Of a stretch of 57,239 bases of DNA, positions 1,105 through 50,071 are shown piece by piece. The translations under genes were made by a program, and so were the position numbers. Origin of the DNA: Candidatus Magasanikiibacteriota bacterium (GTDB taxonomy: Bacteria; Patescibacteriota; Patescibacteriia; Magasanikbacterales; UBA922); NCBI GenBank assembly GCA_003510435.1, contig DOMK01000006.1:1-57239 (forward strand), in the 5' to 3' direction. The first letter of the stretch is position 1. Every line of letters begins with the position of its first letter. Below the pieces are notes generated by a model, which saw only the letters and a program-made list of their open reading frames with translations, was not told where the DNA came from and searched no databases.

Positions 1105-1188
1105 TTCTGTTTAACTCTGTTAGTTCTGTTTATTCTGTTGTAAAATTTAACAACAGAAATAACGGAATTGAACAGAAAAAACAGAATT
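1105..1188. repeat. TCTGTT/AACAGA palindromic element in the proA-proB intergenic region
   Basis: …ttctgtttattctgttgtaaaatttaacaacagaaataacggaattgaacagaa…; 45-bp core nearly identical to 10383-10427. Confidence 0.65.
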
Positions 1189-2466: not shown

Positions 2467-2600
2467 TTCGATCCGCCCAGGGCGGAGAGAAATCCCTTTT
2501 TAAAACATTGATCAGTGCCTTATATCAGTTCCTATTTTAATACATTTTTGAACTCTTGAAAAGGGATTCCTCACCCCGACCTTGTCGGGGATTCGGAATT
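2467..2600. repeat. Family-A GC-rich palindromic element, complete copy (~135 bp)
   Basis: Left arm cgatCCGCCCagGGCGGagagaaatccctttt (2467-2500). Right arm aaaagggattcctcaCCCCGACcttGTCGGGGattcggaatt (2561-2600). Arms are mutual inverted repeats, each with its own hairpin. Confidence 0.8.
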
Positions 2601-6871: not shown

Positions 6872-6897
6872 ACACCTAAACAAAGGGTGTTTTTTTA
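6872..6897 (+). terminator. Rho-independent terminator (ACACC-loop-GGTGT + T-run)
   Basis: aaaACACCtaaacaaagGGTGTttttttt after gene 5511..6830. Confidence 0.5.
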
Positions 6898-6926
6898 TTA
6901 GTGTAAATTAGTGTGTAAGATTAGTG
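6897..6926 (+). promoter_or_regulatory. ATTAGTG x3 direct-repeat array abutting the TTGACA -35 of the GC-island gene
   Basis: attagtg (6897-6903), attagtg (6907-6913), attagtg (6920-6926); spacing 10 and 13 nt. TTGACA at 6931-6936. Confidence 0.6.
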
Positions 6927-6993
6927 TTCATTGACAAAATAATATTTTTTTGCTAATGTAATTTTGTAACCATCATAACGCCCTGGAGGGCAC

Positions 6994-7413
6994 ATGCTCG
7001 ACGTGAACGAATTCCTGTCGTGGTTCGAGGCGGGTCGCTTCAACAGCGTGCTCGCGTTCAAGGACGCGGGCATCGTGGGTAAGAGGGTTGAACAGGTGGC
7101 CCAGGCCATCAAAGCCATCCATGACGTCAACGGGACAACGTTCATGGAAATCATCAGCAACCTCGCTAGTCGGTTCTACGACATGGACGAAAGTGTCCCC
7201 GCCGACTCCGGCCTCGTCGGCGAAGGTGCCGTGGCCATAGCCGCGGCGTTCTCTACACTGTTCAACATGACAGACTTCCCCACCCTGGGAAAGCTCACTG
7301 GCATGCTCTGCGTGTTCGAGGAGGTACTCGAGCACGACTTCAAGCCGAGCGAACCCGGCTACTTGGCCGTAAAGACGGCCGTCGATCATCTGCGTGGACT
7401 TCTCTCCGCCTAG
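6994..7413 (+). CDS. Hypothetical acidic protein (139 aa) encoded in a ~62% GC island
   Basis: ATG preceded by SD ctGGAGGg (6983-6990). TTGACA (6931-6936)-N17-TAATGT (6954-6959) promoter-like signal upstream. Hairpin terminator downstream. Coding strand chosen over the overlapping antisense ORF 6973..7494 because of the RBS/promoter and protein-like composition. Confidence 0.5.
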   Translation: MLDVNEFLSWFEAGRFNSVLAFKDAGIVGKRVEQVAQAIKAIHDVNGTTFMEIISNLASRFYDMDESVPADSGLVGEGAVAIAAAFSTLFNMTDFPTLGKLTGMLCVFEEVLEHDFKPSEPGYLAVKTAVDHLRGLLSA

Positions 7414-7485
7414 CCCTCGCTCCGCTTCAGGAGCAACGTCCCAGGGCGAAGGTGGATTTCGATTCTGTACGTTCTTTTCTCGACT

Positions 7486-7557
7486 AAAAAACACCCGCGC
7501 CCGACTTAGTTCCGATTCATATCGAGATTAAGTTGGAGGATTTACGGGTGTTTTTTT
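7486..7557. terminator. Long hairpin terminator-like structure after the GC-island gene
   Basis: AAAAAACACCCG…(47-nt structured loop)…CGGGTGTTTTTTT. Confidence 0.5.
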
Positions 7558-7572
7558 ATTTCAATTAATATT

Positions 7573-8028
7573 TTATTTTAGTAAAGCCATTTCCACAGCT
7601 GTCATACCCCATTCATAACCACTGTTTAATTTCCCTGAGGAACGTTCTACTGCCTGTTCTTCATTTAGGCAAGTAAGTATACCAAAAATGACAGGAATGC
7701 CAGTGTCTAAATTTAATCGCATAATTCCCTGGGTAACTGCTTCGGCAATATATTCAAAATGCATAGTTCCACCTTTTATAAGAGAACCTAAACAAACCAC
7801 AGCGTCTACTTTTTTATTATCAATCAATTTTTTGGCTGCCAAAGGAATTTCATAAGCTCCGGGAACACTTAACTCATAAATATTTTTTTCTAAAACTCCA
7901 CACTCAGCCAAAGCTTTCCGGCAATTTTCTACCAAAGGATCAGTAATAAAACTATTCCACCGGCTCCGGGCAATGCCAATTTTTAATTTACTACCGTCAC
8001 TTATTTTAAATTCAATGCCTTTTTTCAT
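7573..8028 (-). CDS. ribH: 6,7-dimethyl-8-ribityllumazine synthase
   Basis: 151 aa, typical lumazine synthase length and motifs (…GAYEIPLAAKKL…VVCLGSLIKGGT…). Confidence 0.9.
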   Translation of the reverse strand: MKKGIEFKISDGSKLKIGIARSRWNSFITDPLVENCRKALAECGVLEKNIYELSVPGAYEIPLAAKKLIDNKKVDAVVCLGSLIKGGTMHFEYIAEAVTQGIMRLNLDTGIPVIFGILTCLNEEQAVERSSGKLNSGYEWGMTAVEMALLK

Positions 8029-10343: not shown

Positions 10344-10364
10344 AATTAATTTGAATTTTATAAA

Positions 10365-10428
10365 TTCTGTTTCATTCCGTTATTTCTGTTTATTCTGTTG
10401 TAAATTAACAACGGAAAGAACAGAATTA
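10365..10428. repeat. Second copy of the TCTGTT/AACAGA element upstream of ribA
   Basis: ttctgtttcattccgttatttctgtttattctgttgtaaattaacaacggaaagaacagaatt. Confidence 0.65.
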
Positions 10429-10481: not shown

Positions 10482-11573
10482 CTAAATCTCAATAATCGTC
10501 TTATCACCAATAATCATTTTATGACCCTCAGCTTCTTGTCCGGGTTTTTTTATCACACTTACACCCTTACCAAGAATACTATCAGTAATTTTTATATCAG
10601 CGTCCACCACACTATTCTCTAGCATAATAGAATCTTTCATCTTACAATTTCTTAATTCCCCACCAGAACCAATAGTCACATTCGGACCAATTTCACAATT
10701 TTCCAAAATACAATTCTCAGCAATCATAACTGGACCAATAATTTTTACCCCAGCTTTTATTTGCGAGCCAATCCCCACATGAACTTTGCCAGAAATATCG
10801 GCCGACTTATCTATACTGCCGTGATTAGGAAATTCACTGGCTTCCATTCTTTCCAAAAGAAGTCTGTTGGCTAATAACAAATCATTGGCTTGGCCAGTAT
10901 CTTTCCACCAACCAGTAACTTCCCTGTATCCAACTTTAAAATTATTTTTTAAAAAATGTGAATGAATTGATGATATTTCATATTCACCCCGCGCACTTTT
11001 CTCAATTTTTTCAAAAGCATTGAAAAAAACTTTTGGACCATAGAGATAAATCCCTGTCACCGCAAAATCATTGGGCGGATTTTGTGGTTTTTCTACCACA
11101 TCAATCAATTTTCCCGCTTCATCAAAATATGGCACACCAAACCGATTTGGATCTGGTACTTTTGACAAGGCCAACATACAGTCAAAATTATTTTTGTTAA
11201 ATTCATCAGTCATCTCCTTGATACTACCCAATATAATATTATCTGATAAATAAAATATAAAAGGATCATCACCAATAAATTTCTTGGCTTCATTTACTAC
11301 ATGGGCAATTCCCTGTGGTCCACCAGTTTGTTCAAAAAAAGTAATCTTGACTCCCCAGTGTCCCCCATCACCCACATATTTTTGCAATTCAGTTTCACCC
11401 GGATTTGTATTAATAAAAATTTCTTCCACACCTGCTTCTACCACTTTTTCTATAGCATGAAAAATCATTGGCTTATTGGCCAAGGGTATCAAGTGTTTAT
11501 TGATAAGTGAAGTGATCGGACGCAAACGAGTTGCATGCCCACCACCTGTTAATATTGCTTTTTTAATTCTCAT
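10482..11573 (-). CDS. Sugar-phosphate nucleotidyltransferase (glucose-1-phosphate thymidylyl/uridylyltransferase-like) with C-terminal left-handed beta-helix
   Basis: N-terminal GGxGTRL motif (LTGGGHATRLRPIT) and a hexapeptide-repeat C-terminus. Sits inside a dTDP-sugar/glycan cluster. Confidence 0.7.
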   Translation of the reverse strand: MRIKKAILTGGGHATRLRPITSLINKHLIPLANKPMIFHAIEKVVEAGVEEIFINTNPGETELQKYVGDGGHWGVKITFFEQTGGPQGIAHVVNEAKKFIGDDPFIFYLSDNIILGSIKEMTDEFNKNNFDCMLALSKVPDPNRFGVPYFDEAGKLIDVVEKPQNPPNDFAVTGIYLYGPKVFFNAFEKIEKSARGEYEISSIHSHFLKNNFKVGYREVTGWWKDTGQANDLLLANRLLLERMEASEFPNHGSIDKSADISGKVHVGIGSQIKAGVKIIGPVMIAENCILENCEIGPNVTIGSGGELRNCKMKDSIMLENSVVDADIKITDSILGKGVSVIKKPGQEAEGHKMIIGDKTIIEI

Positions 11574-11617
11574 ATAACATTGATTCCACTGATTCTAAAA
11601 ATGATTTCACTGATTAC
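11574..11617 (-). repeat. 38-bp AATCAGTGRAATC-N8-AATCAGTGGAATCAATG element, copy 1, ending 4 nt before the nucleotidyltransferase start
   Basis: Minus strand: gtAATCAGTGAAATCatttttagAATCAGTGGAATCAATGttat-ATG. Confidence 0.7.
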
Positions 11618-11618
11618 T

Positions 11619-11999
11619 TTAAAAATTCTTATAATTAGCAAATCTTTTGACTTCTAGACTTGAATTACAAAAATTTATTAATAAACCTACTTCTAATTTA
11701 CTAGCTTTTAAATATGATATTGTTTGAGTTTGAAATAACTTAGGCATTTCTCCTGATACGGCTTTTAATTCTACCACTACTTTACTATTCACAACTAAAT
11801 CCAACTGAAATGTGCCTACCCACATATTTTGATATTTAATATCAAACTGTTTTTCACTTTCTACACCTAAACCTTCATTTTCTAAAGCCACAATCATTGC
11901 TTTGTGATAGATTCTTTCTTGAAAACCTGGACCAATTTCACGATGTATTCTCATGGCTACACCAATTATTTGTCTAGTTAATTCACTTTCTTTATACAT
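11619..11999 (-). CDS. GxxExxY family protein (PD-(D/E)XK nuclease superfamily)
   Basis: 126 aa; G-x-x-E-x-x-Y signature (IGVAMRIHREIGPGFQERIYHKAM). Flanked on both sides by inverted copies of a 38-bp repeat. Confidence 0.75.
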   Translation of the reverse strand: MYKESELTRQIIGVAMRIHREIGPGFQERIYHKAMIVALENEGLGVESEKQFDIKYQNMWVGTFQLDLVVNSKVVVELKAVSGEMPKLFQTQTISYLKASKLEVGLLINFCNSSLEVKRFANYKNF

Positions 12000-12028
12000 A
12001 GATCTGTGAAATAAAATTAAACAACCAC

Positions 12029-12066
12029 AATCAGTGAAATCTCAAATTAAATCAGTGAAATCAATG
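12029..12066 (+). repeat. 38-bp AATCAGTGAAATC element, copy 2, inverted relative to copy 1; the pair brackets GxxExxY gene 1
   Basis: AATCAGTGAAATCtcaaattaAATCAGTGAAATCAATG. A degenerate unit gatctgtgaaat lies at 12001-12012. Confidence 0.7.
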
Positions 12067-12068
12067 TC

Positions 12069-13166
12069 TTACCACCAAATCAAAAACTTAACAATAACAA
12101 AATACACTTTCATCACCGGATTCCCTACATAAATCACCAAAGGATTTTCTACAGACTTTTCTTGAAAATATATTCCGGCCACAGCATTTTTTAATAATTC
12201 ACGATCAGTAATTTTTTTAATTTTAAAAATATTTTTTCTTTTCTTCAACCACAATTGCCAACTACTTAGTTTTAACCAATACTGATAAACTTTTATTCGT
12301 TCTTTCCACCAGCCACCTTTGAAAGCAAATAACCACAAACCGATTTCTAAAACCAAAGCAATTGGCAAGAGTAATAATAAAGTTGGAATGCGGAAAAACA
12401 TTAGCATTACCCCATAACGATTGCGTTCCATCCAATAAAACTTGGTAATACTCCGGCTAAATTGATACTTGTGATAAAAAATTGAATCTTTTACTACAAC
12501 CGACCTAAAACCAGCTACTCGCAAACGAAATGAATACTCCAAATCTTCATGATACAAGAAAAAATCTTGATCCCACAAACCAAATTCTTTTAATAAGTCT
12601 GCTCGCATCATAAGCGCGGCTCCACTCGCATAACCAACATCACTCACGGCTGGCAAATTTAAATTTTGATGTTTTACTCTATAATCACCACAAAAACCAA
12701 AACCTAAATATTGAAAAGCATTACCCGCACTATTTACCAAATCTGTTTCTGGATGCAATAGTATTAGAGACTGTGCCACACCAATAGTCTTGTCTTTTTC
12801 CATTTGTTCTACCAATGGTTCAAGACAATTAGAGGCCATAAAACCATCATTATTGTGAAAAAACACATAATCAAAGCCATTATCTAGCGCCCATTTTATG
12901 CCTTCATTATTTCCCCCAGCAAAACCCAGGTTGTCTTTTTGGGGAAGCAGTGTCACGTGAGGAATAATCAAACCAGACATGGGCATAACATTTTCTTCTA
13001 TATAGCGGACTGAACTGCCATACTCTGGGTGCGGATTATCCACAATCACAAACTCCACTCTATCTCTGGGATAAGTTAATTTTTTCAAAGACGAAACCAC
13101 GTCGTCTATGTATGGTTCACAATGAAAGGAAAGATATATAATAGCAATGCGAGGATAAGAATTCAT
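12069..13166 (-). CDS. Glycosyltransferase family 2
   Basis: GT2 fold motifs (…VIVDNPHPEYG…, DxD-type …FHNNDGF…), C-terminal TM helices. The track start 13205 is TTG; ATG at 13166 used. Confidence 0.7.
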   Translation of the reverse strand: MNSYPRIAIIYLSFHCEPYIDDVVSSLKKLTYPRDRVEFVIVDNPHPEYGSSVRYIEENVMPMSGLIIPHVTLLPQKDNLGFAGGNNEGIKWALDNGFDYVFFHNNDGFMASNCLEPLVEQMEKDKTIGVAQSLILLHPETDLVNSAGNAFQYLGFGFCGDYRVKHQNLNLPAVSDVGYASGAALMMRADLLKEFGLWDQDFFLYHEDLEYSFRLRVAGFRSVVVKDSIFYHKYQFSRSITKFYWMERNRYGVMLMFFRIPTLLLLLPIALVLEIGLWLFAFKGGWWKERIKVYQYWLKLSSWQLWLKKRKNIFKIKKITDRELLKNAVAGIYFQEKSVENPLVIYVGNPVMKVYFVIVKFLIWW

Positions 13167-13214
13167 AATAAAAAAATTTTCAATTTTACAATTTACAATT
13201 TTCAAAATGTTTGA

Positions 13215-13249
13215 TATTAGAAATTAGGTTAATTAGAAATTAGAAATTT
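13215..13249. repeat. TTAGAAATTAGGTKAATTAGAAATTAGAAATT element, copy 1
   Basis: tattagaaattaggttaattagaaattagaaattt; near-identical copy at 50037-50071. Confidence 0.6.
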
Positions 13250-14143: not shown

Positions 14144-14173
14144 CACTAATCTTTTACACTAATTCACACTAAT
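14144..14173 (-). promoter_or_regulatory. ATTAGTG x3 direct-repeat array ending 4 nt before the GT2 start codon (14139)
   Basis: cactaat units at 14144-14150, 14157-14163, 14167-14173 (minus-strand ATTAGTG). Confidence 0.6.
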
Positions 14174-15242: not shown

Positions 15243-16319
15243 CTAAATCCACCACCGTCTCATCTCTCTCCAACTCACCTTTCTCATTTCTTTAATCTTC
15301 AATCTTTTAATCTTTAAGTCTTTACGATTTTTCCAAATCTCCCCCAACCCTTTCAACACACTTCTATCAAAAATTAAAAAATACACAAACTTCTTTAATT
15401 CATACCATTTTATCCATAGCAAGTCAAGAAGGTAATTTTGCCAATATTCATTTTTATACAGTGTCATTAAATGATTTTTGTAACTATGATACTTCACCCA
15501 CGATGACTGCTTTTTCTTATTAGCCATAGCTACCATGTCCCCTTTTTTCTCCAACCCCTCGGCCGATCTGTCATGATAGGCAACCGTATCAAGCAAAACA
15601 AAGGCTTTATACCCAGCAATCCGTAAACGATAGGCCAAATCCACATCTTCTTTATACAAAAAATATAATTCATCAAACAAACCAACTTTATCAATCACAT
15701 TTTTGCGAAGCATAGGAAAAGCACCAGACACTCCAAAGACTTCCATCGCTTCATCAACTGTATGATGAGACAATTCTAATTTAGATTTTTTATCATCCCA
15801 ATCTTTGCCGGTATATTTTTCTATCACCCTCCTATTTCGCAAAACTTTTAAACCGAGCGTGTCAATTTTATTACTAAAACTCTGTTCTAATCTTTCAGTG
15901 AAATCTTTTTTTAAATCAGTGAAATCAATGTTCCAACGCATAAGTCTTGGACTAACGACTGCTACGTCATCATGACTATCCATAAACTGTACTAATTTCT
16001 CCAAACAATCCGGCATCAAATACATATCTTGGTTAAGCAATAAGACATATTCATTTTCTCCTTGTTCCTTATTCCTTATTCCTTCAAACAATTTATTATG
16101 ACCGCCTGAAAAACCAAGATTTTCCTTTCCTTCAATCAATTCACACTCAATCGGCATACTCTTAATCTCAATCTTAATCTTTTCTACTGTATCATCTGTT
16201 GACCCATTATCCAAAATTACTAATTTAAAATCACGAAAAGTCTGCTTTCTTAACGAATCAAAAAGATACTCTATATATTTAGAGCCATTCCAGGTGACTA
16301 GGTGTATATTTAATTTCAT
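15243..16319 (-). CDS. Glycosyltransferase family 2 (rhamnosyltransferase-like)
   Basis: …LVILDNGSTDDT…, NQDMYL, ED motifs. The track start 16331 is TTG; ATG 16319 (MKLNIHLVTWNGS) used. Contains an in-frame copy of the 38-bp AATCAGTGRAATC element (IDFTDLKKDFTE). Confidence 0.75.
   Translation of the reverse strand: MKLNIHLVTWNGSKYIEYLFDSLRKQTFRDFKLVILDNGSTDDTVEKIKIEIKSMPIECELIEGKENLGFSGGHNKLFEGIRNKEQGENEYVLLLNQDMYLMPDCLEKLVQFMDSHDDVAVVSPRLMRWNIDFTDLKKDFTERLEQSFSNKIDTLGLKVLRNRRVIEKYTGKDWDDKKSKLELSHHTVDEAMEVFGVSGAFPMLRKNVIDKVGLFDELYFLYKEDVDLAYRLRIAGYKAFVLLDTVAYHDRSAEGLEKKGDMVAMANKKKQSSWVKYHSYKNHLMTLYKNEYWQNYLLDLLWIKWYELKKFVYFLIFDRSVLKGLGEIWKNRKDLKIKRLKIKEMRKVSWREMRRWWI
15893..15930 (+). repeat. 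38-bp AATCAGTGAAATC element, copy 3, in frame inside the GT2 gene 15243..16319
   Basis: tttcagtgaaatctttttttaaatcagtgaaatcaatg; encodes IDFTDLKKDFTE on the minus strand. Confidence 0.7.
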
Positions 16320-17286: not shown

Positions 17287-18177
17287 CTAACTAAAATTTC
17301 TGGGATTCTCAACAAAGAATGAAAGTAATTCTCTAATAATCTCTTTTGTTTTTTCTATTTCCCTACCATCCATTATCATCTTTATACTATTTTCGTAAAT
17401 ACTTTCATCTTCATGTTTATGTCTCCGAACTGTACAACGGCTAACATGAGAGAACAAATTATTCGGTTCTTCTTTTTTGCCACCAGATACTGTAGGACAT
17501 TCTGACTCAAAATGACTAACCATATCACAATTTTTTTTCTTCCTTGTCCTGTCTGAAAAATATTCCAAAGCAAATATATTATCAGGATTATCTTGGCCCA
17601 CTGAATGCTCTATACTTATTTGCACAGATCCCTCACCAACACGATGGCTACTTTGTCTAAATTTAACATGCACTTCCACAATCGTTGGTTTGGAGAGCTG
17701 ATTCACTATATTAGACAGAGTTGGATCAAATATTTCAGATAACAATTTTTCTATGTCGGCGCCTGTCGGCCAGCAATCCATACTGATTGTCTTATTAAGA
17801 TCACATTTTTTTGACCTTTCGAATTTCCTAACAATAATATCAAAATCACCAACTTTATATCTAGCTACATTATTTTCATCCTCCATTAAATCCTGCAAAC
17901 CATCAAATTTATCTAATAACCTATAATACAAGTCCCTAATATTATTATAATCACCAGCTACGGCCACTAATTTATTAGCCTGATTTTCAAAATCTACTGA
18001 TAAATTCTGTATATAAGTATATAATTCAGTCACCATTTCACTCAGCTTCAATACTTCCTGATCATGTTTCCATATCTTATTTTTACACCAAGCCATAATA
18101 TCAGCCAATTCTTTGATTGTCTCTCTAACTTCTTGTGGCATCTCTCGTAAAAATTGTTCTGATACTCTTTCTGGCAT
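17287..18177 (-). CDS. Hypothetical protein (296 aa)
   Basis: Intact ORF with ATG, packed in an operon between a cupin gene and a GT2 gene. No recognisable family. Confidence 0.4.
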   Translation of the reverse strand: MPERVSEQFLREMPQEVRETIKELADIMAWCKNKIWKHDQEVLKLSEMVTELYTYIQNLSVDFENQANKLVAVAGDYNNIRDLYYRLLDKFDGLQDLMEDENNVARYKVGDFDIIVRKFERSKKCDLNKTISMDCWPTGADIEKLLSEIFDPTLSNIVNQLSKPTIVEVHVKFRQSSHRVGEGSVQISIEHSVGQDNPDNIFALEYFSDRTRKKKNCDMVSHFESECPTVSGGKKEEPNNLFSHVSRCTVRRHKHEDESIYENSIKMIMDGREIEKTKEIIRELLSFFVENPRNFS

Positions 18178-24080: not shown

Positions 24081-24203
24081 ATCCCGATCCGCCCAGGACG
24101 GAGAGGGATCCCTTTTCAATGCATTTGTCGATGCAAAAATGCGTTTTATCTTTATTCTTTTTTCCGTGCAATAGAAAGGGATTCCTCGCTACGCTCGGAA
24201 TTT
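24081..24203. repeat. Family-A element, complete copy
   Basis: Left arm cccgatCCGCCCaggaCGGagagggatccctttt. Internal palindrome GCATTTgtcgatgcAAAAATGC. Right arm aaagggattcctcgctacgctcggaattt. Overlaps the last 5 codons and stop of the HIT gene. Confidence 0.8.
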
Positions 24204-24663: not shown

Positions 24664-27063
24664 TTATTTTTTGTCCTTTTTCAACCCCACGTTAGATTGA
24701 CCAAAGTCAATCCCCTCTTGCCAGACAAACATCCCCCCAACCAGCTCTGGTTCTGATTTAAAAATCTGGTTTACTTTATCAAGATTACTACCTACAAATA
24801 ACTCACTTTTTTGTACAAACCAACATTTGTCAGCCTGGGTAAGGTCTTTCATGGTAATCAAGCTAGATACATCTGGATTAACAGTAAATTTGTCTAATAA
24901 TTCAACTCTTTCTTTTTGACCAAATTGATAATCTATAGGAAAGCCACCACCAACAATTCCACCAGATGACAATGCTTCTAGTGGCAACAAAATCCAAGTA
25001 TCTGCAAGAACACAAGGTTTAAGATCAGAAGATCGGAAGATCAAAAGATCATCACTAAATAATTGATCTTTTGATCTTTTGATCTTTTGGTCCTTTCCAT
25101 CCACCAATGAATCTACACTGCTAATATTACTCATTATATACTCTGCCACCCCATATTCATCAACACTAACCACCCGTATATCTGGTCCGGAAGCATAAGT
25201 GAAAGTAGTGAACCAACTAATACTTACAATAAACAACAAAACACCAATTTTACTCAAAATATTATTTTTATTTATGTTACACGTGATTAATGATAAGTGA
25301 TAAGTGATATACATTAAACCTTTAATCAATAAAATCAAAATCAACACTGCCAACACCCCATCTAACCGTCTAGTAAAAAGTTTATCTCCCTCCAAAACAA
25401 ACCAACCAATAATATAACCACCAAGGACAGTATAGAACAACAAATTAATGATCTTTGATCTTTGATCTTTGATCTTTGACATTTCAAAAACCCCGAACAT
25501 TATCAAACACCATACAATCACCATTGCCAATATTAACCACCACCGCCAAGTATTAAAAATACTACTAACAAAAGCTAAGTCTGGCGTATGATTAAATAAA
25601 AAATTTCCACTCAAAATATCATGGGGACGAATCATACTGGCATAAAACCAACCACTAAACTGGCCAATAAGCTGTTTAAAATTCTGCCACCAAGGAATTT
25701 GATCAGGAATAAAACTAACTTTGTTAATAATTTCTATAATTGGGATAATAAAAACACTGACCAGAGCAACTATTCCTAATAAAATTCTTCTAAACAAATT
25801 ATATGGGTTACCTATATTATTTGATAAGTGATAAGTGATAAGTGATAATATAATCACAAGCCAAATCAAAATAAAATACAACGAATAACTCCAAAGCATT
25901 AAAATACTAAAAAATATTACTAAATATTTCTGATACTTATTGCCATCGCGCAAATATTGTAACCACAACATGAGAGTAAACAAAAAGAAAAGCAAACCAA
26001 AACTAACTGGCAACGTGAGACTACCCAGTGCTTGAAGAGAAAATGGTAAAAATGATAACCAAGCTAGTAATAACCCCCTACGCCTTGTACCAAACAAAAT
26101 CCAACCCAACTTAAACATTATAAATGGAAAAACAATTGACCATAAAATTGGCATTAGCCATTTATTTACAGTGATTAAATTTGTCTGCAAAGTCTGAGCC
26201 AAAACCACACTACTACCCCACATCGCGCCATAAGAATATTTTTGTGGATTAAAAAAAACTTCAGGTAAATCAACTTTGGACACTTCGATCCAATTGGCTT
26301 CTGGACCAACTAAAACTGGCAAAACTGAATCTCCAGATAATAATTGTTCTTCTACCGCAATATGACGCCACACATCTCCACCCCAAGGCATTTGGTGCGA
26401 CATGGGCAAATATAGATGAAGTAAAATTGACTGTAACAAAAAAATCAATAAAATAACTTTGGTTTTATATTTGCTAAACAAAAATATTCCAGACAAAATT
26501 GTTAAAATAAAAAATACTAATAAATAGTATTGATTAATTGTTTGCCAAGGTAAATTTAAAACACTGGTACTTTCTGAACTGTACAATAAATAAAATCCGA
26601 CTAAGCACAGAACAAAATAAGCCAAAATCCAGAGAAAATGTCCAGTAAACAAAATAAAATCTTTATCAGTCTCCGCTTCTAGATTTTCTCGATTATTAGC
26701 CTTTTTTCTTTCAAAATACCAAGCCTGTAATAAACTAACTATAGCCACCGTTAGATAAAGAGCAAAGATAAATAAAATATCTAATTTATAAACCATTACA
26801 AAAATTGAACTGACTAGACTAAGTAAACTAAAAACCACAAACCAAGAAAAAACTGACGTTAACCAAGTTTTTTTCTTCAAACTAAATACTCGTTTTAAAC
26901 TATCTTGCCACCACTGTCCCACAATAATTAGATAAGACAAAAACAAAAACCAGCCTAAGTAGGTATAGTGCCAGCTGGTCAAATTAAAATACAACAAAAA
27001 CAGATTTACCAACAAAAAAAACAAATAAGTCTGTTTTTTGATAAAAGATTGGATTTTTAACAT
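24664..27063 (-). CDS. Large polytopic membrane protein (GT-C/PMT-like glycosyltransferase candidate)
   Basis: ~15+ predicted TM helices followed by a ~200-aa soluble C-terminal domain. The track start 27084 is TTG; ATG 27063 used. Contains in-frame AAAAGATC/GATCTTT and GATAAGT short tandem repeats. Confidence 0.4.
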   Translation of the reverse strand: MLKIQSFIKKQTYLFFLLVNLFLLYFNLTSWHYTYLGWFLFLSYLIIVGQWWQDSLKRVFSLKKKTWLTSVFSWFVVFSLLSLVSSIFVMVYKLDILFIFALYLTVAIVSLLQAWYFERKKANNRENLEAETDKDFILFTGHFLWILAYFVLCLVGFYLLYSSESTSVLNLPWQTINQYYLLVFFILTILSGIFLFSKYKTKVILLIFLLQSILLHLYLPMSHQMPWGGDVWRHIAVEEQLLSGDSVLPVLVGPEANWIEVSKVDLPEVFFNPQKYSYGAMWGSSVVLAQTLQTNLITVNKWLMPILWSIVFPFIMFKLGWILFGTRRRGLLLAWLSFLPFSLQALGSLTLPVSFGLLFFLFTLMLWLQYLRDGNKYQKYLVIFFSILMLWSYSLYFILIWLVIILSLITYHLSNNIGNPYNLFRRILLGIVALVSVFIIPIIEIINKVSFIPDQIPWWQNFKQLIGQFSGWFYASMIRPHDILSGNFLFNHTPDLAFVSSIFNTWRWWLILAMVIVWCLIMFGVFEMSKIKDQRSKIINLLFYTVLGGYIIGWFVLEGDKLFTRRLDGVLAVLILILLIKGLMYITYHLSLITCNINKNNILSKIGVLLFIVSISWFTTFTYASGPDIRVVSVDEYGVAEYIMSNISSVDSLVDGKDQKIKRSKDQLFSDDLLIFRSSDLKPCVLADTWILLPLEALSSGGIVGGGFPIDYQFGQKERVELLDKFTVNPDVSSLITMKDLTQADKCWFVQKSELFVGSNLDKVNQIFKSEPELVGGMFVWQEGIDFGQSNVGLKKDKK
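25021..25098. repeat. Inverted arrays of AAAAGATC / GATCTTTT octamers inside the membrane-protein gene
   Basis: aagatcagaagatcggaagatcaaaagatc…gatcttttgatcttttgatcttttggtcctttcc. Confidence 0.75.
25450..25477. repeat. Heptanucleotide SSR (GATCTTT)x4 inside the membrane-protein gene
   Basis: gatctttgatctttgatctttgatcttt. Confidence 0.8.
25823..25847. repeat. Heptanucleotide SSR (GATAAGT)x3-4 inside the membrane-protein gene; second short copy at 25291-25309
   Basis: gataagtgataagtgataagtgata. Confidence 0.75.
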
Positions 27064-34880: not shown

Positions 34881-34937
34881 AATCCCGAATCCACCGTAGT
34901 CCGCCAGCTGGCGGACGAAGGTGGAGAGGGATCCCTT
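34881..34937. repeat. Family-A left-arm solo copy directly upstream of the GT4 start
   Basis: aatcccgaatCCACCgtagtCCGCCagctgGCGGacgaaGGTGGagagggatccctt. Confidence 0.65.
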
Positions 34938-35180
34938 GTTATATATTTAAACTACGCTTTAGATTATACCTTTACACAACACTTTTTTCAAATTTATACC
35001 CCGAAGCCTTGGCGAAGGGGTACAAAAAATCCCAATTTGCACTAACCTCCTCAGTTTATCTCCAATACTTGGAAACAAACTGAGCGGTGCAAACTGGGAT
35101 GATCTTGTCCCCTTAAATTTGTCCGCTCCTAAAGATCCCAATGGGATTGCCCTCCTTGACAGTGAAAAGTCAGGGGTCTC

Positions 35181-40098: not shown

Positions 40099-40137
40099 TT
40101 GTCATTCCGATCCGCCCAGGGCGGAGAGGAATCCCTT
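40099..40137. repeat. Family-A left-arm solo copy directly upstream of rplU
   Basis: gtcattccgatCCGCCCagGGCGGagaggaatcccttt. Confidence 0.7.
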
Positions 40138-40248
40138 TCTTATGGGATATAAATGCTCTCACCGTGAACGATCTTAATTTAAATTAATGTAATATATAAT
40201 GTAAACATTACGCAAATATTCTACCAAATAAGCCAAAATAAGTCAAGT

Positions 40249-44980: not shown

Positions 44981-45000
44981 ATTAGTGATTAAGTGTTTAA

Positions 45001-45040
45001 GTGGTCAGGTGGTCAGGTGGTCAGGTGGTCAGGTGGTCAG
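45001..45040. repeat. Octanucleotide tandem repeat (GTGGTCAG)x5 just downstream of the ftsL stop
   Basis: gtggtcaggtggtcaggtggtcaggtggtcaggtggtcag; preceded by attagtgattaagtgtttaagtgg. Confidence 0.8.
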
Positions 45041-45045
45041 GTGGT

Positions 45046-46850: not shown

Positions 46851-46879
46851 CACTAATCTTAACACTAATCGACACTAAT
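46851..46879 (-). promoter_or_regulatory. ATTAGTG x3 direct-repeat array ending 4 nt before the mraZ start codon; candidate MraZ operator
   Basis: cactaat units at 46851-46857, 46863-46869, 46873-46879. Minus strand reads ATTAGTGtcgATTAGTGttaagATTAGTGatct-ATG. Confidence 0.65.
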
Positions 46880-46921
46880 TTTTGATTTAACTTATAGAGG
46901 GACAGGCATTTCCTCCATAAA

Positions 46922-47299
46922 TTAATTTACTAATCTCTTATATCTAATTCCATCAGGTGTGATTAAAATTATTATTCCCAATTTTTTATTAGTAGCTTTT
47001 AAATATGTAAGAACTTGTTTTATATGCATCGGATAAAAATCATCTGCTACTTTTAATTCTACTACAATTTTATTTTCTACCAAAAAATCTAATGAGTAAC
47101 TCCCAACTTTCTTACCTTTATGAGTGACTCTTACTTTGTGTTCACGTTCAAAACTAAAACATTTTTTTGTCAATTCATCAGCATAAGCACGCTGATAAAA
47201 CAATTCGTAATGTCCGTATTTTAAACTGTTATAAACTGCATAAGCACAACCAACCAACTCATAACATTCATCTTTGTAGATTAAATCAACCCCGTTCAT
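46922..47299 (-). CDS. GxxExxY family protein (PD-(D/E)XK nuclease superfamily)
   Basis: 125 aa; GCAYAVYNSLKYGHYELFYQRAY signature. Flanked by inverted ATTAGTG arrays. Confidence 0.75.
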   Translation of the reverse strand: MNGVDLIYKDECYELVGCAYAVYNSLKYGHYELFYQRAYADELTKKCFSFEREHKVRVTHKGKKVGSYSLDFLVENKIVVELKVADDFYPMHIKQVLTYLKATNKKLGIIILITPDGIRYKRLVN

Positions 47300-47309
47300 A
47301 TCTCACCAC

Positions 47310-47392
47310 ATTAGTATAGGTTAGTGCTAAGATTAGTAGCTTCCAAATTATTCACACAATCACATTAGTGCAGATTAGTGTTAAGATTAGTG
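47310..47392 (+). promoter_or_regulatory. Two ATTAGTR x3 arrays upstream of GxxExxY gene 2, oriented towards the downstream + strand
   Basis: attagta/gttagtg/attagta (47310-47338) and attagtg/attagtg/attagtg (47364-47392). Confidence 0.55.
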
Positions 47393-47646
47393 GTATTCCC
47401 CATAAATCCCCACGTACTACCATTATACCCCACTTACACTACCTTTGCAACCCCAAAACCCCACTTATCCACAGCGTAAAGCTCCCTTCGGTCGCTACGT
47501 TGTAGACAGTCCTTCGCCCTCTGGACTACGGACTGTAAACTCTTATTTATTAAAAAAATAAATGACACCTCATTTTATAAATTTTTTGACAGAGTTAATT
47601 TTAAATAGTAATATTAATATATATAATTTTTAATTAAATATTCTAT

Positions 47647-47877: not shown

Positions 47878-47985
47878 AAAAAAATTGTGTACAAGGAATT
47901 GACATTTAAAAAAAAATACGCTAGTGTATTTATAAGTTCGAAGTCAACCGCCATTCGTCAACCTCAAGAAAAAAAGGAGGGCACC

Positions 47986-48300
47986 ATGCCCGACCCCGCC
48001 GAAGTGACTGCTGTCGCCGTCGTACCCGAGCCGTTCGTGGCTCGTCACCCCGGGATCCTCGACCCCTGCGAATGTGGTGCCCCGCAGACGGTCCGCTCGT
48101 CGACGAGCGTGACCTACAAGTGCGGCCGCATCGACTCGACCGATCCCGCGAAGCAGGCCAGCGTCCCGTGCCCGAACGCGCCCGAGGCCGTCGAGGCCGA
48201 GCCCGTGAGCCTGGACGTCGCCGCCGACGCCCCCGTGCCCGAGCCCGTCGCCGCGCCCGTGGTCGAAGCGCCTGTGGTCGAAGCCGCGCCTGCCGCGTAG
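47986..48300 (+). CDS. Hypothetical protein (104 aa) in a ~68% GC island; Cys cluster then Pro/Ala/Val/Glu-rich tail
   Basis: Perfect SD AAGGAGG (47974-47980) 5 nt before the ATG. TTGACA (47899-47904)-N17-TAGTGT (47922-47927) promoter-like signal. Hairpin terminator at 48505-48532. The track ORF 47887 starts at GTG upstream. Confidence 0.45.
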   Translation: MPDPAEVTAVAVVPEPFVARHPGILDPCECGAPQTVRSSTSVTYKCGRIDSTDPAKQASVPCPNAPEAVEAEPVSLDVAADAPVPEPVAAPVVEAPVVEAAPAA

Positions 48301-48504
48301 CTGAAGGCCGAGGGAATTGGACCGACCGTCCTGCAGGAGGTTGGTCCAACGAGACAAAAATGCAGACGGAGGATACTTGGCGGTTGACTTGTGTCTGCAG
48401 GAATGGGGGGAGACGATGGATCGGGAGGGTCTATCGTCATTCGAGGCCGACAATTGTCTGCCTCCGTTCTTATGAAAATCAAATTTGGTTTTTAGAGGAA
48501 TATA

Positions 48505-48549: not shown

Positions 48550-49950
48550 TCAATTTCTTTTCAATTTCCGTAATGATCTCTGATATGTAATCGCAAATCT
48601 ATGAGCTTCATCTCTCACTTGGATTAACAAATTTTGATTTTCTTTTACCCATTCGGTAAATTCTCTTTTTTTATCAGTGGAATCTTTTCCAAAATCAGTG
48701 AAATCAATGTGGAATTCATTCTTTTTTCTATCCGGACCTTTAGCAATTCCCACAACGGGAATTTTAAATTTATTTGTTCTAATAATTTCCACGGCCTTAT
48801 TTACTTGCGAGACTCCCCCATCTACCAAAATTACATCAGGCAATTTCCAAATATCACCACTTTCTACTTTCAACTTTCTACTTTCAACTTGAGGAGCATG
48901 GCGCAGCCTGCGACGAATCACTTCTGCCATACAATCAACGTCACTTTGCCCTATTACAGTTTTTATTTTAAATTTTCTATATTGTGATTTGTTTGGATAA
49001 CCATTTTCAAATACCACCATACTACCAACCATACCAGTTGAACCAAGATTAGAAATATCATAACCTTCTATTCGAAGTTCTGAGTTCTGAGTTCTGAGTT
49101 CTGAGTTCTCCTGTAAAAAACTTTTATTCAACAAAGCAATGTCTTGTATTTTTTGTAAATTTTTTATTTGATCACGCAATCTTCCAGCTTCCTCAAACTC
49201 ATGAATTTTAGAAGACAATTTCATTTTCTTTTCCAAATCACGAATCAAACCTTTTTTATTACCACGCAAAAATTTTACTAATGGATTAATTACTTTCTTT
49301 TTATATTCAGACGAACTTATTTCCCCAGTACACACACCCAAACATTGTCCCATTTGACGATATAGACAAGGCTTACAAAGCTTACCAAGCTCACAAGGCT
49401 TACAATGTGATATATAAAATAATTTTCTTAAAAGTCCCATCATCTCGCGTGTTTTTAATCCTGGATACGGTCCAAAAATATGTTGAAACTGTTGTAATTG
49501 TTCTAGTTGTTGTAAATGTCTTTCACTTACAACATTTTTAACATCTACAACATTTGGAACATTACCAAGCTCATGCGCTCTAATCGTCTTAACTTGAGGG
49601 AAAACATCTTTTGTAATACAAATATAATTCCAACTCTTATCATCTTTCAAATCCACGTTATACTTTGGTTGATATTTTTTAATTGTATTCGCTTCCAAAA
49701 TAATCGCTTCCAAAACCGAATCAGTTTGTTTTATTTTTATATCCACCACCTCGTCGATCATAGCTTCGATAGGTCGCAATCCCCCTCCCTTTTTAAGGGA
49801 GGGCTGGGGTGGGTTCCGAAAATAACTCCTAACCCTGCTCTTCAAACTTGTCGCTTTACCAATATAAATCAACTCTTTCTGTTTATTATAGAAGAGATAA
49901 ATACCTGGTTCGTTGGGAAATGATTTGATTTTTTTTTCTAAATTAGCCAT
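48550..49950 (-). CDS. uvrC: Excinuclease ABC subunit C (short form lacking C-terminal HhH domain)
   Basis: GIY-YIG N-terminus (GIYLFYNKQKELIYIGKATSLKSRVRSYF), Cys-rich region, UvrC endonuclease core (…VRDEAHRFAITYQR…). Only 466 aa. Contains a heptanucleotide SSR and two small in-frame repeat insertions. Confidence 0.85.
   Translation of the reverse strand: MANLEKKIKSFPNEPGIYLFYNKQKELIYIGKATSLKSRVRSYFRNPPQPSLKKGGGLRPIEAMIDEVVDIKIKQTDSVLEAIILEANTIKKYQPKYNVDLKDDKSWNYICITKDVFPQVKTIRAHELGNVPNVVDVKNVVSERHLQQLEQLQQFQHIFGPYPGLKTREMMGLLRKLFYISHCKPCELGKLCKPCLYRQMGQCLGVCTGEISSSEYKKKVINPLVKFLRGNKKGLIRDLEKKMKLSSKIHEFEEAGRLRDQIKNLQKIQDIALLNKSFLQENSELRTQNSELRIEGYDISNLGSTGMVGSMVVFENGYPNKSQYRKFKIKTVIGQSDVDCMAEVIRRRLRHAPQVESRKLKVESGDIWKLPDVILVDGGVSQVNKAVEIIRTNKFKIPVVGIAKGPDRKKNEFHIDFTDFGKDSTDKKREFTEWVKENQNLLIQVRDEAHRFAITYQRSLRKLKRN
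48672..48709 (+). repeat. 38-bp AATCAGTGRAATC element, copy 4, in frame inside uvrC
   Basis: tatcagtggaatcttttccaaaatcagtgaaatcaatg; encodes HIDFTDFGKDSTDK on the minus strand. Confidence 0.7.
49076..49110. repeat. Heptanucleotide SSR (AGTTCTG)x5 inside uvrC (in frame as ELRTQNS repeats)
   Basis: agttctgagttctgagttctgagttctgagttctc. Confidence 0.85.
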
Positions 49951-50036: not shown

Positions 50037-50071
50037 ATTAGAAATTAGGTGAATTAGAAATTAGAAATTCA
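50037..50071. repeat. TTAGAAATTAGGTKAATTAGAAATTAGAAATT element, copy 2, overlapping the uvrA stop codon
   Basis: tattagaaattaggtgaattagaaattagaaattca. Confidence 0.6.

What the first reader, a model, noticed from the sequence alone, without database searches (positions are those of the whole stretch)
11574..12066. GxxExxY nuclease-family gene bracketed by inverted copies of a 38-bp element: compact selfish-cassette candidate
GxxExxY gene 1 (11619..11999) is flanked by AATCAGTGRAATC-N8-AATCAGTGAAATCAATG at 11574-11617 (minus orientation) and 12029-12066 (plus orientation). That is a ~490-bp TIR-gene-TIR unit inserted between a nucleotidyltransferase gene and a GT2 gene. GxxExxY gene 2 (46922..47299) is likewise bracketed by inverted ATTAGTG arrays (46851-46879 minus; 47310-47392 plus). 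GxxExxY proteins belong to the PD-(D/E)XK nuclease superfamily and are known to be sporadically distributed and multi-copy. A defined TIR-bounded unit would suggest a homing or transposition mechanism. Solo copies of the 38-bp element occur in frame inside two other genes (15893-15930; 48672-48709), consistent with footprints.
Basis: partly seen in the sequence, partly recalled or inferred. Interest (0 to 1): 0.7.

Follow-up and report, generated by a model that had tools for sequence, protein, structure and literature searches.

The report
Tiny mobile nuclease gene with repeat ends
A 126-residue nuclease gene of unknown function (GxxExxY family) sits with its inverted repeat ends as a 495-base insertion between two tightly packed sugar-pathway genes; related genomes lack it, and GxxExxY genes from many unrelated bacteria carry similar inverted repeat ends, so this large orphan family looks like the core of a very small mobile DNA element.

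Summary
Two GxxExxY (TIGR04256/PF13366) genes are the only 2 of 49 genes in the window with significantly inverted flanks (z 11.8 and 12.4). Cassette 1 (11574-12068) is a 495-nt insertion. In four relatives the GT2 stop and the rmlA start are 1-3 nt apart, and one relative has a GIY-YIG gene with its own inverted flanks at that junction. Close homologues (91%, 84%) lie at other junctions, and homology begins and ends exactly at ACATTGATT...AATCAATGT. Cassette 2 is a 485-nt insertion in the mraZ 5' leader with an 8-12-bp target duplication and short terminal inverted repeats. In 74 GxxExxY loci picked by protein alone, 43 have inverted flanks against 0 of 30 control genes. These flanks are arrays of a 7-9-nt box, mostly AATCNGTG, with fixed polarity. 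Gene-less arrays also occur, and two sit in frame in GT2 and uvrC as lineage-specific insertions, not footprints. The protein models as a Cas4/RecB-like nuclease with intact catalytic residues. Best reading: a minimal TIR-bounded selfish cassette, REPtron-like, whose nuclease probably acts on its own boxes. That last step is inferred. I found no description in the searched literature.

The parts
11574..12068 (-). Cassette 1: the whole 495-nt insertion between the GT2 stop codon (12069-12071) and the rmlA start codon (11571-11573)
   Evidence: Orthologous junctions in L007, L008, L011 and L012 have only 1-3 nt between stop and start. L006 has a GIY-YIG gene there instead.
12029..12067 (-). 5' (gene-upstream) terminal inverted repeat of cassette 1. 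On the gene strand it reads ACATTGATTTCACTGATT-N8-GATTTCACTGATT (terminus plus two boxes).
   Evidence: I6. Homology with cassettes at other junctions starts exactly at (G/A)ACATTGATT.
11619..11999 (-). GxxExxY gene 1 (126 aa), a PD-(D/E)XK nuclease with G25xxE28xxY31, D67, E77 and K79
11577..11615 (-). 3' terminal inverted repeat of cassette 1. On the gene strand it reads AATCAGTGAAATC-N8-AATCAGTGGAATCAATGT and ends 3 nt before the rmlA ATG.
   Evidence: The same end (AATCAATGT + T(AT)ATG) occurs in cassettes upstream of rmlA, a GT2 gene and miaA.
46912..47396 (-). Cassette 2: a 485-nt insertion (including one copy of the target duplication) in the mraZ 5' leader. It carries GxxExxY gene 2 and its upstream CACTAAT arrays.
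   Evidence: Global alignment with the orthologous uvrC-mraZ spacer of a ~90% AAI relative (L214) gives a single clean gap between ...GATTTATGGGGA and AAATGCCTGT....
46922..47299 (-). GxxExxY gene 2 (125 aa), 26% identical to gene 1, with catalytic residues conserved
47397..47407 (-). Left copy of the target-site duplication of cassette 2 (ATTTATGGGGA on the gene strand). It is part of the conserved G-rich box next to the mraZ promoter.
   Evidence: The right copy at 46912-46922 reads ATTTATGGAGG: 8 perfect bases, 9/11 overall.
46912..46922 (-). Right copy of the target-site duplication of cassette 2 (ATTTATGGAGG). It overlaps the last base of the stop codon.
47310..47396 (-). Upstream end of cassette 2: terminus (A)TACCACTAATCT, three CACTAAT boxes (47364-47392), then three degenerate boxes (47310-47343)
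46923..46936 (-). Right terminal inverted repeat of cassette 2 (AGATTAGTAAATTA on the gene strand), inside the last codons of the gene. It pairs with TACCACTAATCT at the left end.
   Evidence: Sequence read.
46851..46879 (-). Solo ATTAGTG x3 array ending 4 nt before the mraZ ATG. It lies outside cassette 2, and the relative L214 has only a degenerate version.
15893..15932 (-). Solo arm of the cassette-1 repeat (AACATTGATTTCACTGATT-N8-GATTTCACTGA on the gene strand), in frame in GT2_362, where it encodes NIDFTDLKKDFTE
   Evidence: It lies in an indel-variable loop that is absent from the L008 and L011 orthologues and is occupied by a different palindrome in L020.
48672..48710 (-). Solo arm of the cassette-1 repeat in frame in uvrC. 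It is a 9-aa insertion (HIDFTDFGK) relative to the 78%-identical orthologue.
6897..6926 (+). Solo ATTAGTG x3 array (cassette-2 type box) in an intergenic region
14144..14173 (-). Solo ATTAGTG x3 array ending 4 nt before the start codon of GT2_279

Best explanation
Each of the two loci is a minimal mobile (selfish) DNA cassette of about 0.49 kb. It holds one gene for a small Cas4/RecB-like PD-(D/E)XK nuclease (GxxExxY family) bounded by terminal inverted repeats. These repeats are built from tandem copies of a short box: GATTnCACnGATT/AATCnGTGnAATC plus the terminus ACATTGATT in cassette 1, and the one-base variant CACTAAT/ATTAGTG in cassette 2. The cassettes land in the few bases between a stop codon and the next start codon, or in a 5' leader. 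They are co-oriented with the host operon, carry no evident promoter or terminator, and so are presumably expressed by read-through. The same plan (reverse boxes, then gene, then forward boxes, with fixed polarity) recurs around GxxExxY genes from diverse metagenomes and several phyla. The box sequence changes with the protein lineage. Gene-less box arrays, paired or single, are scattered through the same genomes and can insert in frame into proteins. Shown here: the insertion/absence polymorphism, the relocation of close homologues, the boundaries, the TSD and TIR of cassette 2, the broad association and polarity, and the intact nuclease fold. Inferred: the GxxExxY nuclease recognises its own boxes and makes the cuts that mobilise both the cassette and, in trans, the gene-less arrays. 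This would work like a RAYT with its REPINs, but with a different enzyme. I put the mobile-cassette part at about 0.85 and the claim that the nuclease is the mobilising enzyme at about 0.5.
Against: No biochemical activity is known for any GxxExxY protein; the family is listed as 'Unknown' in PMC3424549. To my knowledge no stand-alone PD-(D/E)XK protein is known to transpose DNA. Cassette 1 shows no clear target-site duplication, whereas cassette 2 has one, so the two may not insert in the same way. No near-identical copies were seen within one genome (the two window genes are 26% identical), so activity is slow or old. Only about 58% of protein-selected loci have clearly inverted flanks, and 21 of 74 also show direct-repeat similarity. 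A GIY-YIG gene has the same architecture with another box. The repeat ends might therefore be served by some shared host or trans-acting factor rather than by each nuclease.
Confidence: 0.6

Rival explanations
1. The cassette is mobile, but GxxExxY is cargo. Some other enzyme encoded elsewhere (a transposase or recombinase acting in trans, or host repair) moves any unit bounded by such box arrays. The nuclease would then serve another purpose, for example defence, toxin-like addiction or DNA repair.
For: A GIY-YIG gene with different boxes has the same architecture at the very same junction. A PF05635 gene also sits in a junction in L213, though with only weakly inverted flanks (z 2.4). The window is littered with other 7-9-nt arrays that are not next to any nuclease gene.
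Against: Box type co-varies with GxxExxY lineage. The polarity of the boxes relative to the gene is kept across phyla. The catalytic residues are invariant. No candidate trans-acting transposase was seen in the 57-kb window.
Confidence: 0.2
2. The inverted arms matter mainly in RNA. In the read-through transcript they pair into a long stem that RNase III cuts. This would release the small gene's mRNA and insulate the host operon, as happens with 23S rRNA intervening sequences that carry an ORF.
For: The cassette-1 transcript folds with the arms as a closing stem of 20 + 14 bp; MFE -118 kcal/mol, z -5.0. There is no promoter or terminator signal above chance inside the cassette. IVS elements are about 430-nt units with terminal inverted repeats around a small ORF and are cut by RNase III (PMC4990558).
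Against: Across eight orthologous cassettes the arm sequence itself is conserved. The variable n positions differ between the two arms without compensation. Cassette 2 has arrays on one side only, with a short TIR. Many loci have one-sided arrays (89 of 115). An RNA stem does not explain the insertion polymorphism. This reading is compatible with the best explanation as a secondary role.
Confidence: 0.1
3. Homing-type spread: the nuclease cuts gene-less box arrays already present at a site, and recombinational repair from a gene-bearing copy pastes the gene in, using the arrays as homology arms.
For: Gene-less tail-to-tail pairs with the cassette polarity exist in many genomes (22 against 4). 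Cassette 1 has no visible TSD. GIY-YIG proteins are classic homing enzymes (my knowledge).
Against: The empty GT2|rmlA junctions have only 1-3 nt and no array. The empty site of cassette 2 has no array, and the filled site has a TSD. The occupied junctions share no common target.
Confidence: 0.07
4. The arrays are ordinary operator sites of a host regulator (for ATTAGTG next to mraZ, the MraZ repressor), and the nuclease genes merely lie between them.
For: ATTAGTG x3 has GTG cores spaced 6-8 nt apart directly before mraZ. Published MraZ sites are three GTG(G/T) boxes spaced by six nucleotides (PMC12957436). Solo arrays often end a few bases before a start codon.
Against: The conserved element upstream of mraZ in three genomes is a TATAAT flanked by GTGGGG boxes about 47405-47470, not the ATTAGTG array. 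The ATTAGTG array is degenerate in L214. The arrays of cassette 1 are part of the inserted DNA and travel with the gene to unrelated junctions. In Mucilaginibacter the mraZ boxes (AGTGG) differ from the AATCAGTG arrays in the same locus.
Confidence: 0.03

Closest known systems
REPtrons: RAYT genes flanked by inverted REP sequences, with dispersed REPINs (PMC3116915, PMC3337134, PMC5581495)
   Same: A single small nuclease/transposase-type gene is bracketed by inverted copies of a short repeat. The same repeat is scattered through intergenic regions as gene-less singlets and inverted doublets. Each gene lineage has its own repeat variant. Copies within a genome are divergent rather than identical.
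   Different: RAYTs are HUH/Y1 single-strand transposases related to IS200/IS605, and REPs are individual hairpins. Here the enzyme is a PD-(D/E)XK Cas4-like nuclease, and the repeats are tandem arrays of non-palindromic 7-13-nt boxes. The gene cassette itself is polymorphic and relocates. One cassette has a TSD. Arrays also insert in frame into genes.
23S rRNA intervening sequences carrying a small ORF (e.g. Coxiella IVS, PMC4990558)
   Same: A roughly 0.43-0.5-kb unit made of terminal inverted repeats around one small ORF of unknown function. It is regarded as selfish, sits inside a transcribed unit, and has arms able to form a long RNA stem.
   Different: IVSs sit in helix 25/45 of 23S rRNA and encode PF05635 four-helix-bundle proteins. 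The cassettes here sit between or before protein-coding genes and encode a PD-(D/E)XK nuclease, and their arms show sequence rather than pairing conservation.
Class II TIR transposons and their MITE derivatives
   Same: Terminal inverted repeats with subterminal repeated binding-site-like boxes, a target-site duplication (cassette 2), presence/absence polymorphism, and gene-less short derivatives.
   Different: There is no DDE, serine or tyrosine transposase. The only ORF is a 125-aa PD-(D/E)XK nuclease. The element is about 0.49 kb, smaller than the insertion sequences I know of (my knowledge). Cassette 1 has no clear TSD.
Free-standing homing endonuclease genes (GIY-YIG, HNH, LAGLIDADG)
   Same: A small selfish nuclease gene with sporadic distribution between conserved genes. 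A GIY-YIG gene occupies the same junction in a relative.
   Different: Homing enzymes re-insert at one long specific target by homologous repair. Here close homologues occupy unrelated junctions, carry their own inverted ends, and in one case have a TSD.
Rickettsia palindromic elements (in-frame insertion of small repeats into genes; my knowledge, not checked in the library)
   Same: Short mobile repeats tolerated in frame inside conserved proteins (sites C and D; also other arrays in uvrC).
   Different: RPEs are 100-150-bp palindromes with no associated gene. Here the inserts are 27-42-nt box arrays identical to the ends of a nuclease cassette.

Membership tests
GxxExxY protein / PDDEXK_3 (TIGR04256, PF13366) | HMM score above the curated cut-off | tested here: met
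   126.5 and 104.4 bits against a cut-off of 35 (TIGR04256); 121.3 and 101.4 bits against 22 (PF13366)
GxxExxY protein / PDDEXK_3 (TIGR04256, PF13366) | N-terminal GxxExxY motif and a D...ExK catalytic core | tested here: met
   G25, E28, Y31, D67, E77 and K79 are invariant in 8 diverse and in 57 related sequences
GxxExxY protein / PDDEXK_3 (TIGR04256, PF13366) | Restriction-endonuclease-like (PD-(D/E)XK) fold | tested here: met
TIR (class II-like) transposable element | Terminal inverted repeats at the exact boundaries of the inserted DNA | tested here: met
   Cassette 1: ACATTGATT...AATCAATGT at the limits of homology in 8 cassettes. Cassette 2: TACCACTAATCT / AGATTAGTAAATTA at the gap edges.
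TIR (class II-like) transposable element | Target-site duplication | tested here: inconclusive
   Cassette 2 has ATTTATGGGGA / ATTTATGGAGG (8 perfect bases, up to 12 with 2 mismatches). Cassette 1 has none recognisable at five junction types.
TIR (class II-like) transposable element | Occupied and empty sites among related genomes, and copies at different loci | tested here: met
TIR (class II-like) transposable element | Element-encoded enzyme that cuts and joins the ends | not testable with these tools
   The only ORF is a PD-(D/E)XK nuclease; activity is unknown
REPtron (RAYT + REP/REPIN) | HUH/Y1 transposase of the IS200/IS605 type | tested here: not met
   Pfam and NCBIfam give only PDDEXK_3/GxxExxY; the fold is Cas4-like
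REPtron (RAYT + REP/REPIN) | Gene flanked by inverted copies of a repeat that is also dispersed as gene-less singlets and doublets | tested here: met
Homing endonuclease gene | Re-insertion at one conserved cognate target sequence | tested here: not met
   Close homologues sit at GT2|rmlA, cupin|GT2, miaB|miaA and PGI|GT2
23S rRNA intervening sequence | Location in helix 25/45 of 23S rRNA; ORF of family PF05635 | tested here: not met
   No rRNA in the window. The flanks are protein-coding genes. The ORF is PF13366.
23S rRNA intervening sequence | Terminal complementary sequences forming an RNase III stem | tested here: inconclusive
   A stem is predicted, but there is no compensatory variation. 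Cleavage is not testable.
MraZ operator (for the ATTAGTG arrays) | Three or more GTG(G/T) boxes about 10 bp apart upstream of mraZ, conserved among relatives | tested here: not met
   The ATTAGTG array is degenerate in L214. The conserved boxes are GTGGGG around a TATAAT about 47405-47470.

The most novel reading that the evidence does not exclude
GxxExxY proteins, a family with thousands of members and no known function, are the enzymes of a previously unrecognised class of minimal autonomous DNA elements (~0.45-0.5 kb) found in several phyla. A lone Cas4-like PD-(D/E)XK nuclease would recognise tandem 7-13-nt boxes that form the element's inverted ends. It would mobilise both itself and large populations of gene-less box arrays, which can even insert in frame into essential proteins. 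GIY-YIG genes (and possibly PF05635 genes) in the same junctions may be parallel versions of the same lifestyle.
Probability: 0.35. Interest if true: 0.85.

Novelty: new variant of a known kind. Interest (0 to 1): 0.74.

Why it matters
GxxExxY/PDDEXK_3 is a very large family: 4,827 cluster representatives at E <= 1e-10 to this one query. It is annotated only by a motif name and listed as function 'Unknown'. Its sporadic, multi-copy distribution has had no explanation. If these genes are the core of about 0.5-kb TIR-bounded cassettes with cognate repeat arrays, several things follow. That distribution would be explained. Genome annotators would get a rule for many 'hypothetical' intergenic repeats in Patescibacteria, Bacteroidota and other phyla. 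It would be a candidate for one of the smallest self-contained mobile DNAs, with an enzyme type not known to act alone in transposition. It would also supply a second, independent example of the RAYT/REPIN type of gene-plus-repeat-population relationship. The box-specific recognition implied by lineage-specific boxes would be directly testable and potentially useful. The in-frame array insertions in uvrC and a glycosyltransferase show that such elements also reshape protein sequences in reduced CPR genomes.

Tried and rejected
(1) Chance or general repeat density. Rejected: motif counts exceed all shuffles. Only the 2 GxxExxY genes of 49 window genes have inverted flanks, and 0 of 30 control genes do in other loci.

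(2) ATTAGTG arrays as MraZ operators. I considered this seriously because gene 2 lies just upstream of mraZ-rsmH and a Mucilaginibacter mraZ has AGTGG x3 upstream. Rejected because the element conserved in L214, L215 and the window is TATAAT plus GTGGGG boxes further upstream, and the ATTAGTG array is degenerate in L214.

(3) RNA stem as the main constraint. The fold supports a stem, but the arms conserve sequence, and the variable positions differ between arms.

(4) Homing into pre-existing arrays. The empty sites have no arrays.

(5) Known RNA families. Rfam gave nothing at gathering score in the window and nothing credible at E <= 1 in the two GC-rich islands. No tRNAs were found.

(6) Sequence search of the PDB with a family profile gave only spurious telomerase hits, so a fold search was needed.

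(7) Literature. Only 3 papers hold 'GxxExxY' and 1 holds 'PDDEXK_3'; none describes flanking repeats. The box sequences appear only as unrelated primers.

(8) The first related-loci scan with 8 diverse proteins failed for lack of a conserved stretch and was repeated with 4.

(9) The viral contig scan found a single locus, so phages are not an obvious reservoir.

(10) Target-site duplication for cassette 1. I tried TA, TAA and ATG models against the empty junctions; none fits all cases.
Full report
**Source and setting.**
The window is AT-rich (about 33% GC). It comes from a Rifle groundwater metagenome contig (PRJNA292723) of a Candidatus Magasanikbacteria (Patescibacteria/CPR) genome. The finding lies in a minus-strand sugar-nucleotide and glycosyltransferase operon. 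The gene order on that strand is: several GT2 genes, GT2_378 (12069-13205), the small ORF (11619-11999), rmlA (10482-11573, TIGR01208 at 336 bits), then riboflavin genes.

**Checking the observation.**
- Both small ORFs are clear members of PF13366/TIGR04256. They keep the GxxExxY motif and the D67/E77/K79 nuclease triad.
- The 13-mer AATCAGTGAAATC occurs 16 times against 3.3 expected. It forms four two-copy sites with 21-nt spacing. Two of them bracket gene 1 in inverted orientation, as 39-nt arms that are 79% complementary.
- ATTAGTG triple arrays occur at four places. Two of them bracket gene 2, as 29-nt arms that are 93% complementary.
- The window is also full of other 7-9-nt tandem arrays. 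For each of 49 genes I aligned the 120-nt upstream flank to the reverse complement of the downstream flank. Only the two GxxExxY genes stand out (z 11.8 and 12.4; next best 2.8).

**Cassette 1 is an insertion.**
- I looked up the genomic context of rmlA orthologues. In L007 (86% identical rmlA) the GT2 stop and the rmlA ATG are 1 nt apart (TAAtATG).
- In L008-L010 (77%) and L011/L012 (76%) they are 3 nt apart. The window has 495 nt at this point.
- In L006 (86%; 93% identical to L007) the same junction holds a 112-aa GIY-YIG gene with its own, different inverted flanks (ATTCCGA / TCGGAAT type, z 6.3).
- Other Magasanikbacteria (L060, L111, L210, L212) carry a 74-77%-identical GxxExxY at GT2|rmlA.
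- On an rmlA tree the occupied, empty and GIY-YIG states are interleaved. The junction has therefore seen repeated precise gains or losses.

**The cassette relocates with its ends.**
- The closest homologue (91%) is in genome MFD12003. Most neighbouring proteins there are 79-93% identical to the window's; SLT, at 27%, is the exception. In that genome the cassette lies between a cupin gene and GT2_294, not at GT2|rmlA.
- The 84% homologue lies between miaB and miaA. A 66%-type copy lies at PGI|GT2 in L008.
- In all of these, similarity to the window starts at (G/A)ACATTGATT and ends at AATCAATGT, followed by T(AT)ATG of whatever gene comes next. In L208 the inverted repeat extends to ATATA(G)ACATTGATT.
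- No target-site duplication can be recognised for this subfamily.

**Cassette 2.**
- Gene 2 lies directly upstream of mraZ-rsmH.
- The orthologous uvrC-mraZ spacer of MFD12003 (L214) lacks it. A global alignment gives a single 485-nt gap between ...GATTTATGGGGA and AAATGCCTGT....
- The inserted DNA begins (A)TACCACTAATCT. It carries three CACTAAT boxes and three degenerate ones, then the gene, and ends AGATTAGTAAATTA inside the last codons. It is followed by ATTTATGGAGG, which repeats the ATTTATGGGGA found at the other edge. This is a short TIR plus a target duplication of 8 perfect bases (up to 12 with 2 mismatches).
- The conserved mraZ promoter and operator look like a TATAAT flanked by GTGGGG boxes at about 47405-47470. 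These are shared by L214 and L215 and agree with published GTG(G/T) MraZ boxes (PMC12957436). Cassette 2 therefore sits in the mraZ leader, co-oriented, right against the last box.

**Generality.**
My own estimate of the chance expectation is about 0.5. The hits include Bacteroidota (many Mucilaginibacter), Firestonebacteria, Omnitrophota, Planctomycetota, Verrucomicrobiota, Gammaproteobacteria, Saccharibacteria and Magasanikbacteria.
- Almost every GxxExxY ORF in those loci abuts the boxes. The arrangement is always reverse boxes upstream and forward boxes downstream.
- To remove the selection bias, I fetched 80 metagenome loci chosen by protein similarity alone. In the 74 usable loci, AATCNG[TC]G is 15-20x enriched in the 120-nt flanks. 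The polarity is strong: 49 reverse against 10 forward upstream, and 42 forward against 14 reverse downstream. Seventeen loci have the cassette polarity on both sides, against 2 with the opposite.
- The upstream flank aligns to the reverse complement of the downstream flank at z>3 in 43 of 74 loci. This compares with 0 of 30 other genes in the same loci (Fisher p 1.7e-7, computed at the stricter z>5 cut, 36/74 vs 0/30).
- The box is not always the same. AATC[ACT]GTG, AATCAGCG, ATCCTGT, TTCGTG, CATTCG, CTCTGC, TTCCGT, TTCTGT and TTTCGT all occur, always as reverse boxes, gene, forward boxes.
- The box class follows the protein's nearest neighbour in 23 of 26 cases. The ATTAGTG of gene 2 is a one-base variant of ATCAGTG.

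**Gene-less arrays.**
- Of the 115 motif-selected loci, 22 have a reverse box within 120 nt upstream of the forward array (the cassette polarity without a gene). Four have the opposite arrangement, and 89 are one-sided.
- In the window, site C (15893-15932) is one arm, starting with the same AACATTGATT terminus. It sits in frame in an indel-variable loop of GT2_362. That loop is absent in L008 and L011 and is replaced in L020 by a different GC palindrome.
- Site D (48672-48710) is a 9-aa in-frame insertion in uvrC relative to the 78%-identical orthologue. The same uvrC has a further 14-aa insertion coinciding with an ACTTTCA array, and two more tandem arrays lie in its coding sequence.
- These are insertions of arrays, not footprints left by the gene cassette.

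**The protein.**

**DNA site or RNA stem?**
- The cassette-1 transcript would fold with the arms as a 20 + 14-bp closing stem (z -5.0). The cassette has no promoter or terminator signal above chance. An IVS-like RNase III role (PMC4990558) is therefore possible.
- Against that, in eight orthologous cassettes both arms keep the sequence CATTGATTnCACnGATT, while the n positions differ between the two arms of one cassette (T/C, C/T plus T/A, G/A, A/T). The pattern fits two copies of a protein-recognised site better than selection for pairing.

**Mechanism.**
- Shown: the units are discrete insertions bounded by inverted ends. They are polymorphic and have moved between junctions. One has a TSD. 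The gene, boxes and polarity are inherited together across phyla. The nuclease site is intact.
- Inferred: the nuclease binds its boxes and cuts at the ends, and the gene-less arrays are mobilised in trans. The closest working analogy is the RAYT/REPIN system (PMC3116915, PMC3337134, PMC5581495), but with an unrelated enzyme and tandem-box ends.
- Membership in the RAYT family fails (there is no HUH/Y1 domain). So does membership in classical homing endonuclease genes (no common target) and in rRNA IVSs (wrong location and wrong ORF family).
- I rate the mobile-cassette claim at about 0.85 and the claim that GxxExxY is the mobilising enzyme at about 0.5.

**Novelty.**
I found no description of repeat-bounded GxxExxY cassettes in the searchable literature. 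I cannot exclude a description in subscription journals or in database curator notes. The kind (a small TIR element with non-autonomous derivatives) is known. The enzyme, the tandem-box ends, the roughly 0.49-kb size and the breadth across phyla are new, so I class it as a new variant of a known kind.

Noticed in passing
window 1105-1188, 10364-10399, 13216-13248, 50037-50069, 25021-25092, 44984-45045, 52341-52383, 55419-55458, 55984-56014: The genome is littered with tandem arrays of other 7-9-nt units (TTCTGTT, ATTAGAA, GATCA-type, GTGGTCAG, TTTCGTA and others). Many are shared between distant intergenic regions, and some form gene-less inverted pairs. TTCTGT and TTTCGT are box types that flank GxxExxY genes in other metagenomes.
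   Followed up: partly
window 48859-48890, 49076-49109, 49366-49405 (inside uvrC 48550-49950): uvrC carries several further tandem arrays in its coding sequence (ACTTTCA, AGTTCTG x4.9, ACAAAGCTT). At least the first coincides with a 14-aa insertion relative to the 78%-identical orthologue in L214.
   Followed up: partly
window 47960-48480: A 65.5% GC island lies in a 33% GC genome, between uvrC and the mraZ promoter. It holds overlapping ORFs on both strands and has no Rfam match. The same spacer in L214 is also GC-rich (54.7%) but is not homologous. It could be foreign DNA, an unknown RNA or a chimeric assembly.
   Followed up: partly
window 6973-7494: A second GC-rich patch (47% GC in 7001-8000) has long ORFs on both strands, no Pfam hit for the plus-strand ORF and no Rfam match. 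An ATTAGTG x3 array and a CACCTAAG array lie just upstream.
   Followed up: partly
window 2469-2518, 24085-24134, 34908-34957, 40108-40157, 56317-56366: A five-copy family of a 50-nt element, CGATCCGCCCAGGGCGGAGAGRRATCCCTTTT (a GC hairpin followed by a conserved tail). It may be a terminator or a REP-like element (D1).
   Followed up: no
L006 4271-4727: A 112-aa GIY-YIG gene with its own inverted flanks (ATTCATTCCGA...AGAGGAATCTTTC / GAAAGATTCCTCT...TCGGAATGAA, z 6.3) occupies exactly the GT2|rmlA junction in a genome whose rmlA is 93% identical to that of the empty L007.
   Followed up: partly
L011 1518-1655: Where L008 has a GxxExxY cassette (PGI|GT2), L011 has a 139-nt gene-less palindrome (GTCATTGCGAG...CGACGAAGCAATC...GATTGCTTCGTCG...CTCGCAATGAC).
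   Followed up: no
L020 about 2003-2060; L214 1845-1890: In the close relative MFD12003, the GT2_358 loop that holds site C in the window carries a perfect GC palindrome (ACCTGCCTGCGCAGGCAGGT) in frame. Its uvrC stop codon lies inside a solo left-arm array, AGACATTGATTTCACAGATT-N8-GATTACACAGATT. The cupin stop codon there is likewise supplied by the cassette terminus (CAT TGA).
   Followed up: partly
window about 47405-47470 (minus strand): The likely mraZ promoter and operator: a TATAAT flanked by GTGGGG boxes, 95% identical in L214 and recognisable in L215. Cassette 2 separates it from mraZ by about 485 nt, so the nuclease gene would be the first gene transcribed from Pmra.
   Followed up: partly
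L213 5796-6164: A PF05635 (23S_rRNA_IVP) gene sits between lysW and a Mur ligase gene in a Magasanikbacteria-like contig, with weakly inverted flanks (z 2.4).
   Followed up: no
window 17287-18177: A 296-aa ORF with no Pfam hit lies between the cupin gene and GT2_293. In MFD12003 that interval holds the GxxExxY cassette instead.
   Followed up: no
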